Origin: a virus | Lineage: Duplodnaviria; Heunggongvirae; Uroviricota; Caudoviricetes | Strand: one strand, 5' to 3' | Length of the DNA stretch: 27,553 nucleotides | Virus record (IMG/VR): IMGVR_UViG_3300029653_000015 | Shown: in pieces, positions 9,084 through 9,290 of the stretch | Layout of the letters: each line of letters begins with the position of its first letter | How positions within the stretch are numbered: position 1 is the first letter of the stretch | The notes under the pieces: generated by a model | Told to the model about the DNA's origin: nothing | Database searches by the model: none | The model's input: only the letters and a program-made list of their open reading frames with translations | Program-made: the position numbers and the translations under genes

Positions 9084-9290
9084 AAAGTGAGGAGCAAAAG
9101 TGAGGATAGCGGGTAATTTAACAAAAAATCAGCGCTACTCCTCACTTTCTCACCTGTATATAGGTCAAAAAGTGAGGAATAAAAAATGCATTGCAAAACA
9201 ACGCATTACAGAAGCAAAAAAAACAGGTGAGGAGCATGACGGGAATAACAAAAAGTGAGGAATAAAAGTGAGTAGAGGTGAGGAATGACC
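9084..9290 (+). repeat. iteron array, putative replication origin of the inserted element (about 8 copies of AAGTGAGGA-like 9-10-mers, one inverted)
   Basis: Copies near 9088, 9101, 9137 (inverted), 9171, 9229, 9254, 9268 and 9280. Lies immediately downstream of the replication ATPase gene, as in P4-like and PICI elements. Confidence 0.6.

What the first reader, a model, noticed from the sequence alone, without database searches (positions are those of the whole stretch)
9084..9290. Iteron array immediately after the replication ATPase gene
About eight copies of an AAGTGAGGA-like motif in both orientations, with irregular spacing, in a 200-bp non-coding stretch. It sits directly after the RecA-fold replication gene and before the SSB-like gene, which is the usual layout of a satellite origin. 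The last copies double as the RBS of the next ORF.
Basis: seen in the sequence. Interest (0 to 1): 0.5.

Follow-up and report, generated by a model that had tools for sequence, protein, structure and literature searches.

The report
Replication origin of a phage satellite
The repeat cluster is very probably the replication origin of a small phage satellite lodged inside a prophage gene: a known kind of origin, but comparison shows one amino acid of the satellite's helicase changing in step with one base of every repeat.

Summary
Window 9084-9284 carries eight AAGTGAGGA-like copies, seven direct and one inverted, plus one degenerate inverted copy. The exact 8-mer occurs 6 times in the window against 0.63 expected.

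The window is a lambdoid prophage whose terminase large-subunit gene is split by a roughly 10-kb helper-embedded PICI satellite. The array starts right after the stop codon of the satellite's 471-aa AAA_25 (RepA-like) helicase. In PICIs and SaPIs that is where the origin lies, and in EcCICFT073 that position was tested experimentally.

About 85 related loci across Enterobacterales share one layout. It runs: direct repeats, an inverted repeat, a TATATA centre, a direct repeat about 30 nt on, an AT-rich spacer, then more direct repeats. The repeat core differs between lineages, and nearly all copies within a locus carry the same core.

Base 4 of the repeat tracks Rep residue 447, which caps the recognition helix of a predicted C-terminal winged helix:
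- N pairs with A.
- H or K pairs with G.
- S or G pairs with C.

Three predictions made from protein sequence alone were met.

Verdict: this is the Rep-binding iteron origin, a new member of a known kind. Function is inferred, not shown. The ribosome-binding-site explanation fails, because relatives use GTGCGGC repeats.

The parts
7372..7671 (+). DUF4222 gene. It overlaps the rep start codon and is conserved upstream of both replicase types.
   Evidence: Pfam PF13973, E=3.8e-24. The same gene lies upstream of the EcCICFT073 pri gene.
7668..9083 (+). rep gene, 471 aa. It has three parts: an N-terminal domain (1-134) shared with EcCICFT073 Pri, an AAA_25 RepA-like helicase core (152-320), and a C-terminal winged helix (about 405-471).
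   Evidence: Pfam AAA_25, E=3e-44. RSF1010 RepA (1g8y) is the only PDB sequence relative, E=0.004. N-terminal domain 62% identical to EcCICFT073 Pri. AlphaFold model.
8865..9080 (+). Coding region for the Rep C-terminal winged-helix domain. Codon 447 (AAC, Asn) lies at 9006-9008, just before recognition helix 448-457.
   Evidence: Model pLDDT about 90, topology H-H-H-beta-beta. Foldseek top hits are all winged-helix domains: MCM8 WH, IdeR/DtxR, PcaR. Residue 447 co-varies with iteron base 4.
9085..9093 (+). Iteron 1, AAGTGAGGA. It starts one base after the rep stop codon.
9098..9106 (+). Iteron 2, AAGTGAGGA.
9139..9147 (-). Iteron 3, inverted AAGTGAGGA. It forms the left arm of the conserved dyad.
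   Evidence: inverted-repeat pairs I1, I4. Conserved in 73 loci.
9148..9156 (-). Degenerate inverted copy, (C)AGGTGAGA.
   Evidence: I5, I9. It switched with the other copies in L082 but not in L087, so its status is uncertain.
9157..9162 (.). TATATA at the centre of the dyad. It is the proposed nucleus of DNA melting.
   Evidence: At least 90% conserved across 73 loci, in the frame CCnCACTT-8nt-TATATA-6nt-AAGTGnGG. It lies in the least stable 20-mers of the array, about -21.6 kcal/mol, among the weakest 5% of the window.
9170..9178 (+). Iteron 4, AAGTGAGGA. It forms the right arm of the dyad, 31 nt after the start of iteron 3.
   Evidence: The spacing is 29 nt in 54 of 71 loci scored (range 27-31), as measured.
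9179..9224 (.). AT-rich spacer of 46 nt, about 28% G+C, between the left and right iteron sets.
   Evidence: Sequence and composition profile. It varies between close relatives while the iterons stay fixed.
9225..9233 (+). Iteron 5, AGGTGAGGA.
9253..9261 (+). Iteron 6, AAGTGAGGA.
9266..9274 (+). Iteron 7, AAGTGAGTA.
9276..9284 (+). Iteron 8, AGGTGAGGA. It overlaps the Shine-Dalgarno region of the next ORF.
   Evidence: It abuts the ATG at 9285. In L082 this copy alone keeps GTGAGGA.
9285..9536 (+). Conserved 83-aa ORF of unknown function. It follows the origin in both replicon types.
   Evidence: 74% identical to the ORF after the EcCICFT073 ori. No Pfam match.
9533..9955 (+). Single-stranded-DNA-binding protein gene.
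   Evidence: Pfam SSB, E=1.8e-15.

Best explanation
Region 9084-9284 is the replication origin (ori) of a helper-embedded PICI satellite.

Proposed mechanism:
1. The satellite's Rep protein is a RecA-fold AAA_25 helicase with a C-terminal winged-helix domain. It binds the AAGTGAGGA iterons through the recognition helix of that domain. Asn447, at the N-terminal cap of the helix, reads the A at iteron position 4 (GTG-A-GGA).
2. The iterons form two sets. The left set is two direct copies plus a dyad of two oppositely oriented copies around TATATA. The right set is four direct copies. A 46-nt AT-rich spacer separates the two sets.
3. Rep molecules bound on the two arms of the dyad and on the flanking copies are proposed to melt the TATATA and A-rich DNA. 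They would then load themselves as helicase rings, as SaPI Rep initiator-helicases do.
4. After that, the satellite SSB and host replication proteins take over.

What is shown: the array exists. Its position and layout are conserved. Rep has a helicase core and a predicted winged helix. Repeat sequence and Rep residue 447 change together.

What is inferred: Rep binding, melting, self-loading, and origin activity.
For: 1. Enrichment. There are 6 exact AGTGAGGA copies against 0.63 expected, five of them within 176 nt.

2. Context. The array sits in a satellite that has an integrase, Bro-N, DUF4222, an AAA_25 helicase, SSB, a ClpP-capsid fusion and a DUF1441 terS-like gene. The satellite splits terL into GpA_ATPase and GpA_nuclease parts. 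This matches the published HE-PICIs (PMC10111431).

3. Position. The array lies directly 3' of rep, which is the ori position in SaPIs and Gram-negative PICIs (PMC6092414, PMC9371898).

4. Comparison with EcCICFT073.
- The tested ori gap lies between the same DUF4222-replicase gene and the same 83-aa ORF plus SSB. The ORF is 74% identical.
- The replicase body is unrelated beyond residue 134, and the iterons are different (GGTAGA/TCTACC).
- So the replicase and the repeats were exchanged together. A deletion primer in the paper's supplement ties the locus to the experiment.

5. Conserved layout. In 73 of 79 related loci the same arrangement follows the rep stop codon. The dyad CCnCACTT-8-TATATA-6-AAGTGnGG is conserved.

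6. Concerted change. The iteron core differs by lineage: GTGAGGA, ATGAGGA, GTGCGGC, GTGGGGA, GTGGGGGA and GTGGGGGC. In the loci inspected, nearly all copies within a locus share that locus's core.

7. Covariation with residue 447:
- N with A in 24 of 24 loci (202 of 202 sites).
- S with C in 7 of 7 loci.
- H with G in 8 of 8 loci.
- K with G in 33 of 34 loci.

8. The switch occurs between near-identical proteins.
- L001 (N, A) and L082 (H, G) have 100% identical helicase cores. Their Rep C-terminal regions differ at only three residues: N447H, S457G and Y467D.
- The nucleotide divergence between them is strongest from about 9000 to 9300 and eases downstream. That stretch covers the recognition helix, the wing and the ori.

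9. Predictions from protein sequence alone were met:
- P0001 (KHF, 97% identical to the window Rep) has GTGGGGA.
- P0049 (KNM) has GTGAG.
- P0105 (KHL) has GTGGG.
- A new class, KGF, has TGCGC.

10. Structure. Rep 405-471 is predicted as helix-helix-helix-hairpin with pLDDT about 90, and residue 447 sits just before helix 3. The Foldseek top hits of the isolated domain are winged-helix DNA binders.

11. Selective conservation. Between the window and L001 the iterons are identical, while the AT-rich spacer and other inter-iteron DNA carry the substitutions.

12. A 17-kb circular K. pneumoniae record (CP018459.1) is a PICI-like element. This Rep is the only replication protein I recognised in it, and it carries a GTGCGGC array of the same layout.
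Against: - No experiment exists for this element or, as far as I could find, for this Rep subtype.
- The AAA_25 core was poorly modelled (pLDDT 35-70), so helicase activity rests on Pfam and a weak match to RSF1010 RepA.
- Foldseek E-values for the winged helix are weak (0.03-0.3). The fold call rests on topology and on the consistency of the hits.
- The window's Rep has no recognisable primase domain, so priming is unexplained. Many relatives carry a longer, different N-terminal region that I did not identify.
- In the window the right-hand iteron set has direct copies only. [quoted passage not shown]
- The covariation shows that Rep reads these repeats. It does not by itself prove that binding starts replication rather than regulating something.
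- N/H alternation among close relatives could come from recombination of a few alleles rather than many independent mutations. The number of independent events is therefore smaller than the number of loci.
Confidence: 0.85

Rival explanations
1. The repeats are Rep-binding sites that act mainly in regulation rather than initiation. They could serve as an operator repressing or timing the downstream ORF-SSB genes, or as copy-control 'handcuffing' sites. The true origin would lie elsewhere, for instance in the AT-rich gap at 9956-10382.
For: The covariation proves recognition, not initiation. A dyad around a TATA-like hexamer resembles an operator over a -10 element. Iterons in plasmids commonly have both initiation and control roles (general knowledge). 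A second AT-rich gap of 31% G+C exists at about 10100-10400.
Against: No sigma-70-like promoter was found in the array on either strand. Where a -35 element would lie, the sequence is an iteron that differs between lineages. The gap at 9956-10382 instead holds a cos-like repeat and a terminator-like hairpin. The positionally equivalent gap of EcCICFT073 supported replication, and deleting it reduced replication (PMC6092414). Regulation and initiation are not mutually exclusive.
Confidence: 0.08
2. The motif is a repeated strong ribosome-binding site (GAGGA) serving a string of small ORFs and the next gene. It would be a translational feature, not a DNA-binding one.
For: The motif contains GAGG, GTG and TGA. 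Start codons follow several copies: ATG at 9185, ATG at 9236, GTG at 9267 and ATG at 9285. The last copies do sit where the Shine-Dalgarno sequence of ORF 9285 should be.
Against: One copy is inverted. The mini-ORFs are not conserved even in a 96%-identical relative. Relatives carry GTGCGGC or TGCGC repeats, which are not Shine-Dalgarno-like, in the same layout, with a separate AAGGAG before the next gene. The repeat core tracks a residue of Rep.
Confidence: 0.02
3. The array is a packaging signal (cos or pac accessory site) or an integrase or excisionase arm-type binding site.
For: Satellites need packaging signals, and repeated short sites are typical of cosB and of att arms (general knowledge).
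Against: Lambda-like cos cores identical to the helper's lie elsewhere, at 1345, 10024 and 12564. The array is more than 4.6 kb from either end of the element. The repeats co-vary with Rep, not with the integrase or terS.
Confidence: 0.01

Closest known systems
Origin of the Gram-negative PICI EcCICFT073 (Fillol-Salom et al. 2018, PMC6092414)
   Same: The flanks are the same: DUF4222 and the replicase gene upstream, and a homologous 83-85-aa ORF (74% identical) plus SSB downstream. The ori lies in the gap right after the replicase stop codon. Both have short repeats in both orientations around AT-rich DNA. The replicases share a 134-aa N-terminal domain, 62% identical.
   Different: The EcCICFT073 replicase is a 584-aa 'DNA primase family' protein, unrelated beyond residue 134. 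Its repeats are GGTAGA(C/T)A / TCTACC. The window uses an AAA_25 helicase with a winged helix and AAGTGAGGA repeats. The EcCICFT073 ori was tested in a plasmid assay; this one was not.
SaPI replication origins and Rep initiator-helicases (SaPIbov1, SaPI1, SaPI5; PMC9371898)
   Same: The helicase carries a C-terminal winged helix that reads 5-6-nt iterons. Six to twelve iterons lie immediately downstream of rep, in two sets around an AT-rich centre. Specificity is cognate between rep and ori. A self-loading mechanism is proposed.
   Different: SaPI Reps are AAA+ helicases (SF3/SF6-like) with 3'-5' polarity. This Rep has a RecA-fold AAA_25 (RSF1010 RepA-like) core. The iterons here are 8-9 nt long. 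In the window the right-hand set has direct copies only.
RSF1010 (IncQ) RepA helicase and oriV
   Same: RepA (PDB 1g8y) is the only solved structure with detectable sequence similarity to the helicase core. The replicon also uses iterons.
   Different: In RSF1010 the iterons are bound by a separate initiator, RepC, and RepA has no DNA-recognition domain (general knowledge). Here the helicase itself carries the predicted winged helix that co-varies with the iterons.
Iteron plasmids with winged-helix initiators (pPS10 RepA, RK2 TrfA, F RepE)
   Same: A winged-helix recognition helix reads directly repeated iterons next to an AT-rich unwinding element.
   Different: Those initiators have no helicase domain and recruit host DnaB through DnaA. 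No DnaA box lies within this array.
Helper-embedded PICIs (Tommasini, Mageeney and Williams 2023, PMC10111431)
   Same: [quoted passage not shown] It shows the zones described in the paper: integration, Bro, replication and captured late genes.
   Different: That paper places the ori by analogy and does not analyse iterons ('iteron' occurs 0 times).

Membership tests
PICI/SaPI-type replication origin | Lies immediately 3' of the replication initiator (rep or pri-rep) gene. | tested here: met
   The rep stop codon is at 9081-9083 and the first iteron at 9085. The same holds in the related loci examined.
PICI/SaPI-type replication origin | Multiple short iterons in two sets flanking an AT-rich region. 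| tested here: met
   Left set 9085-9178, spacer 9179-9224 at about 28% G+C, right set 9225-9284.
PICI/SaPI-type replication origin | [quoted passage not shown] | tested here: inconclusive
   The left side has opposed copies at 9139(-) and 9170(+). The right side of the window has direct copies only. Xenorhabdus relatives do have an inverted copy on the right side.
PICI/SaPI-type replication origin | The initiator is a helicase with a DNA-binding (winged-helix) domain specific for its own iterons. | tested here: met
   AAA_25 core. Predicted winged helix at 405-471. Residue 447 co-varies with iteron base 4, and three predictions were met. All of this is computational.
PICI/SaPI-type replication origin | The rep-ori segment drives replication of a plasmid, and deleting the ori abolishes or reduces it. 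| not testable with these tools
   This was shown only for the non-homologous EcCICFT073 module at the same position (PMC6092414). A circular 17-kb record carrying this Rep type exists, which is suggestive only.
Helper-embedded PICI (HE-PICI) | Integrated within, and co-oriented with, a late gene of a prophage. | tested here: met
   terL is split into GpA_ATPase (2081-3073) and GpA_nuclease (13496-14608), and the satellite genes lie on the same strand. The insertion is the same in E. coli EC42405.
Helper-embedded PICI (HE-PICI) | Encodes an integrase, an AlpA regulator and a replication protein, all unidirectional. | tested here: inconclusive
   The integrase (3235-4473) and Rep are clear. The 67-aa ORF after int (4486-4689) scores only HTH_17 at 17.8 bits, below the cut-off of 27. 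RefSeq calls its homologue a helix-turn-helix regulator.
Helper-embedded PICI (HE-PICI) | Precise att repeats bounding the element. | tested here: not met
   No direct repeat of 14 nt or more bracketing the element was found in 2950-13650. Shorter att cores were not searched, so this is a weak negative.

The most novel reading that the evidence does not exclude
This widespread Enterobacterales satellite replicon may use a RecA-fold (SF4-like, RSF1010 RepA-type) helicase that is its own origin-recognition protein. That would be convergent with the AAA+ SaPI Reps.

Its specificity would be set by an almost one-residue, one-base code. Residue 447, at the cap of the winged-helix recognition helix, would read iteron base 4:
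- Asn reads A.
- His or Lys reads G.
- Ser or Gly reads C.

Near-identical E. coli elements alternate between the N/A and H/G alleles. That alternation would reflect selection to keep the origins of co-resident satellites from cross-talking, much like plasmid incompatibility groups. The conserved dyad centred on TATATA would be where two rings load head to head.
Probability: 0.45. Interest if true: 0.55.

Novelty: new member of a known kind. Interest (0 to 1): 0.4.

Why it matters
The finding pins down the origin and the initiator of a very common E. coli, Salmonella and Xenorhabdus satellite replicon. Related Rep clusters hold hundreds to thousands of member sequences. The 3.6-kb region around the array has matches in 2258 of 5426 complete E. 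coli genomes, though only 32 cover most of it.

It also offers a clean, testable specificity rule: residue 447 against iteron base 4. That rule could be used in three ways:
- to predict which satellites can cross-replicate or exclude each other;
- to build orthogonal rep-ori pairs for PICI-based delivery vectors;
- to study how a RecA-fold helicase could load itself at an origin.

For annotation, it explains a conserved 200-nt 'empty' gap in these islands.

Tried and rejected
- Reading loci in Python. Loci from the search for related loci were not exported to /data. I passed them through DNA alignment instead, which worked.
- Finding EcCICFT073. Two 45-49-kb fetches of CFT073 missed the island. 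The third found it.
- Searching the supplement of PMC6092414 for iteron sequences. It returned only a deletion primer. Figure 2a of that paper, which lists iterons of several E. coli PICIs, is not readable here, so I cannot say whether this iteron type was already drawn there.
- Foldseek with the whole Rep model. It gave only unrelated Rossmann-like hits because the core is poorly modelled. I discarded it and repeated the search with the C-terminal domain alone.
- Sigma-70 promoter scan. It found none in the array.
- DnaA-box search. It found none in the array.
- Rfam. No family matched anywhere in the window.
- A 10-bp hairpin in the AT-rich spacer (9185-9207). It is not kept in L001 or Xenorhabdus, so I rejected it as a feature.
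- The extra AAGTGAGGA copy at 6853. It is not conserved, so it is chance.
- Direct-repeat search for att sites of 14 nt or more. None was found.

Full report
**1. The observation**

Window 9084-9284 contains seven direct copies and one inverted copy of an AAGTGAGGA-like 9-mer, plus one degenerate inverted copy.
- Direct copies start at 9085, 9098, 9170, 9225, 9253, 9266 and 9276.
- The inverted copy lies at 9139-9147.
- The degenerate copy lies at 9148-9156.

The exact 8-mer AGTGAGGA occurs six times in the 27.5-kb window against 0.63 expected. None of 100 shuffles reached six, and five of the six copies lie within 176 nt. The sixth, at 6853, is missing from a 96%-identical relative, so I take it as chance.

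**2. Where it sits**

The window is a lambdoid prophage. Its terminase large-subunit gene is split into a GpA_ATPase part (2081-3073) and a GpA_nuclease part (13496-14608) by an insertion of about 10 kb.

The insert encodes, all on the + strand:
- a tyrosine integrase (3235-4473);
- a small HTH protein;
- a Bro-N protein;
- DUF4222 (7372-7671);
- a 471-aa AAA_25 'RepA family' helicase (7668-9083);
- the repeat array;
- a conserved 83-aa ORF (9285-9536);
- SSB (9533-9955);
- a ClpP-protease/major-capsid fusion (10589-12505);
- a DUF1441 small-terminase-like protein (12677-13249).

E. coli EC42405 has the same insertion in the same gene at 96% identity. This is the 'helper-embedded PICI' arrangement described by Tommasini, Mageeney and Williams (PMC10111431). 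That paper places the ori 'downstream of pri' by analogy and does not analyse iterons.

**3. What is known about such origins**

In SaPIs and in Gram-negative PICIs, the region immediately 3' of the initiator gene is the origin. [quoted passage not shown] For EcCICFT073 a rep-ori plasmid replicated, and deleting rep or ori impaired it (PMC6092414). SaPI Reps are helicases whose C-terminal winged helix reads the iterons (PMC9371898).

I located EcCICFT073 in the CFT073 genome (L085). A deletion primer from the paper's supplement matches the DNA right after its pri stop codon. The order there is DUF4222, pri, a 288-nt gap, an 85-aa ORF, then SSB.
- The ORF is 74% identical to window 9285-9536.
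- Pri shares only its first 134 residues with the window's Rep, at 62% identity. The rest is unrelated.
- The repeats in the gap are GGTAGA(C/T)A / TCTACC rather than AAGTGAGGA.

So between conserved flanks, the body of the replicase and the repeats have been exchanged together. That is the expected behaviour of a cognate initiator-origin cassette.

**4. Comparative anatomy**

A scan of one genome per species returned 80 loci encoding relatives of Rep, across Xenorhabdus, Citrobacter, Pantoea, Pectobacterium, Serratia, Morganella, Klebsiella and others. I extracted the DNA after each rep stop codon.

Nearly all loci show one layout, counting from the stop codon:
1. One to three direct repeats at +0 to +30.
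2. One inverted repeat at about +41 to +56.
3. A TATATA box.
4. A direct repeat a fixed distance after the inverted one.
5. A spacer of 50-60 nt, often AT-rich.
6. Two to four more direct repeats.

Anchoring on the inverted copy in 73 loci gives the consensus CCnCACTT-8nt-TATATA-6nt-AAGTGnGG. TATATA is at least 90% conserved. The spacing as measured is 29 nt in 54 loci, with a range of 27-31.

The repeat core is not constant:
- GTGAGGA in the window, L001 and Xenorhabdus;
- ATGAGGA in L005 and L025;
- GTGCGGC in L002, L027, L033, L034, L043, L046 and L047;
- GTGGGGA in L029, L031, L032, L035 and L037;
- GTGGGGGA in Serratia, Pectobacterium, Morganella and others;
- GTGGGGGC in L056 and L057.

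In the loci I inspected, nearly all copies within a locus carry that locus's core. Concerted change of dispersed copies in both orientations is what binding sites of a single protein do. Repeats such as GTGCGGC cannot be ribosome-binding sites.

**5. Link to Rep**

I aligned the Rep C-termini and sorted them by repeat type. One position separates the groups cleanly: the residue between the invariant Lys446 and the F-x-R-W-L motif, residue 447 in the window protein.

The counts are:
- N pairs with A in 24 of 24 loci (202 of 202 NTG-x-GG sites).
- S pairs with C in 7 of 7 loci (52 of 52 sites).
- H pairs with G in 8 of 8 loci.
- K pairs with G in 33 of 34 loci.

This is not just deep phylogeny.
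- E. coli L001 (N, GTGAGGA) and E. coli clone D i14 L082 (H, GTGGGGA) have 100% identical helicase cores. Their Rep C-terminal regions differ at only three residues: N447H, S457G and Y467D.
- L035 and L037 (H) are 93% identical in the core to L043 and L047 (S).
- Along the DNA, L001 and L082 are nearly identical up to about 9000 in window coordinates. They diverge most between about 9000 and 9300, which covers the recognition helix, the wing and the array.
- A separate divergent patch at 8900-8999 (helices 1-2) differs between the window and L001 without any change of repeat type. That patch is therefore not the determinant.

I then made predictions from protein sequence alone and fetched the DNA:
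- P0001 (KHF, 97% identical to the window Rep) has GTGGGGA repeats.
- P0049 (KNM) has GTGAG.
- P0105 (KHL) has GTGGG.
- A class not seen before, KGF (P0114), has (A)TGCGC. A small residue again pairs with C.

**6. Structure**

An AlphaFold model built from a 34-sequence alignment is poor in the helicase core. It is confident (pLDDT about 90) for two regions: the N-terminal domain and residues 405-471.

Residues 405-471 fold as helix 410-424, helix 431-440 and helix 448-457, followed by a beta hairpin at 461-470. That is winged-helix topology, and residue 447 lies immediately before the third (recognition) helix.

The isolated domain folds the same way. Its Foldseek hits in the PDB are winged-helix DNA binders: the MCM8 WH domain, IdeR/DtxR and PcaR. 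TM-scores are about 0.6 and probabilities 0.9-0.99, although E-values are weak at 0.03-0.3.

By sequence, the only solved relative of the core is RSF1010 RepA, E=0.004. Asn preferring adenine and His or Lys preferring guanine fits general rules of protein-DNA recognition. That last point is my inference, not a test.

**7. Rival explanations**

- Ribosome-binding sites and mini-ORFs. This is contradicted by the inverted copy, by loss of the mini-ORF start codons in L001, and by the non-Shine-Dalgarno repeats with a separate AAGGAG in relatives. The last one or two copies probably do supply the Shine-Dalgarno sequence of ORF 9285, since GAGG at 9275-9278 lies 6 nt before the ATG. In L082 the last copy alone keeps GTGAGGA. 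In L087 it too has changed, so this dual role is incidental.
- Promoter or operator. No sigma-70-like site was found, and the would-be -35 region varies with the repeat type. A regulatory side-role of Rep binding cannot be excluded.
- Packaging site. The lambda-like cos cores lie elsewhere.
- DnaA-dependent origin. No DnaA box lies in the array.
- Structured RNA. No Rfam family matched.

**8. Likely mechanism**

Rep binds the left and right iteron sets through its winged helix. The two opposed copies at 9139-9147 and 9170-9178 bracket TATATA (9157-9162). This region holds the least stable 20-mers of the array, at about -21.6 kcal/mol against a window mean of -27.2.

I propose that melting starts there or in the adjacent 46-nt spacer of about 28% G+C. 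Rep rings would then load on the opened strands, as proposed for SaPI Reps.

The window Rep has no recognisable primase domain. Priming is therefore unexplained and may rely on the host.

Shown: the array, its conservation, the domain composition and the covariation. Inferred: binding, melting, loading and origin activity.

**9. Further support and limits**

A 16,971-bp circular K. pneumoniae record filed as a plasmid (CP018459.1) is a PICI-like element with an integrase, capsid and terminase genes. This Rep is the only replication protein I recognised in it, and it carries a GTGCGGC array of the same layout. That is consistent with episomal replication, although an excised circle in an assembly would look the same.

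No paper in the searchable library describes this Rep subtype or its iterons. Figure 2a of PMC6092414, which draws iterons of several E. coli PICIs, could not be read.

**10. Verdict**

It is an iteron-type origin of a PICI satellite, and therefore a new member of a known kind. The added value is the residue-447 / base-4 specificity rule and the conserved TATATA-centred dyad, both of which can be tested directly.

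Noticed in passing
window 1345-1369, 10024-10048, 12564-12588 (82-nt repeat 9989-10070 / 12529-12610): There are three identical lambda-cos-like cores, CACGGGGCGGGAGCGTCGCGGAAAA. One lies upstream of the helper prophage's terS. The other two lie inside the satellite, 2540 nt apart, bracketing its protease-capsid fusion gene. The second of these sits just upstream of the satellite's DUF1441 terS-like gene. I did not work out why a satellite would keep two cos-like sites.
   Followed up: partly
window 2081-3073 and 13496-14608: The helper prophage's terminase large-subunit gene is split into its ATPase and nuclease halves by the satellite. The helper therefore cannot make TerL until the satellite excises. 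E. coli EC42405 has the same configuration.
   Followed up: partly
window 7668-8069 (Rep residues 1-134); L085 32242-32643: A confidently modelled 134-aa N-terminal domain is shared, at 62% identity, by two otherwise unrelated replicases: the AAA_25 helicase here and the EcCICFT073 primase-family protein. It has no Pfam match. Many other relatives carry a different, longer N-terminal region in its place, which I did not identify. Its function is unknown.
   Followed up: partly
L003 (Xenorhabdus beddingii), +226 to +320 after the rep stop codon: What looks like a second iteron array of the same layout, with GTGGGGA repeats, follows directly after the GTGAGGA array. Two origins of different specificity would then lie in tandem. 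The extracted stretch ends inside the second array.
   Followed up: no
L086 = CP018459.1 (K. pneumoniae pKp_Goe_795-4, 16,971 bp, circular): A record deposited as a non-mobilizable plasmid looks like a capsid-encoding PICI-type satellite. It has an integrase, Rep, a capsid gene, a head-tail adaptor and both terminase subunits, and it carries the GTGCGGC version of this origin.
   Followed up: partly
window 8900-8999: A sharply divergent patch (64-78% identity against 96-100% on either side) separates the window from its close relatives L001 and L082. It covers helices 1-2 of the Rep winged helix. This points to mosaic recombination inside the DNA-binding domain without any change of iteron type.
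   Followed up: partly
L036, L038, L048 and others: last codons of rep: In the GTGGGGGA group the Rep C-terminus ends ...KVGD*. Its codons, AAA GTG GGG GAT, are themselves the first iteron, so the protein's tail and its own binding site are encoded by the same bases.
   Followed up: no
window 10258-10274 (+): A terminator-like hairpin, GCCGGATTTTTTCCGGC followed by a T-run, lies in the AT-rich gap (about 31% G+C) between the SSB gene and the capsid module. It probably marks the end of the replication operon.
   Followed up: no
window 8834-8842 (-) and 6588-6596 (-): There are two perfect DnaA boxes (TTATCCACA). One lies inside the 3' part of rep, about 250 nt upstream of the array. One-mismatch matches are also over-represented in the window, 16 against about 6 expected. 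I did not check whether they are conserved.
   Followed up: no
window 26086-26128: A run of 43 N bases, which is masked or unresolved sequence, lies in the prophage tail region.
   Followed up: no
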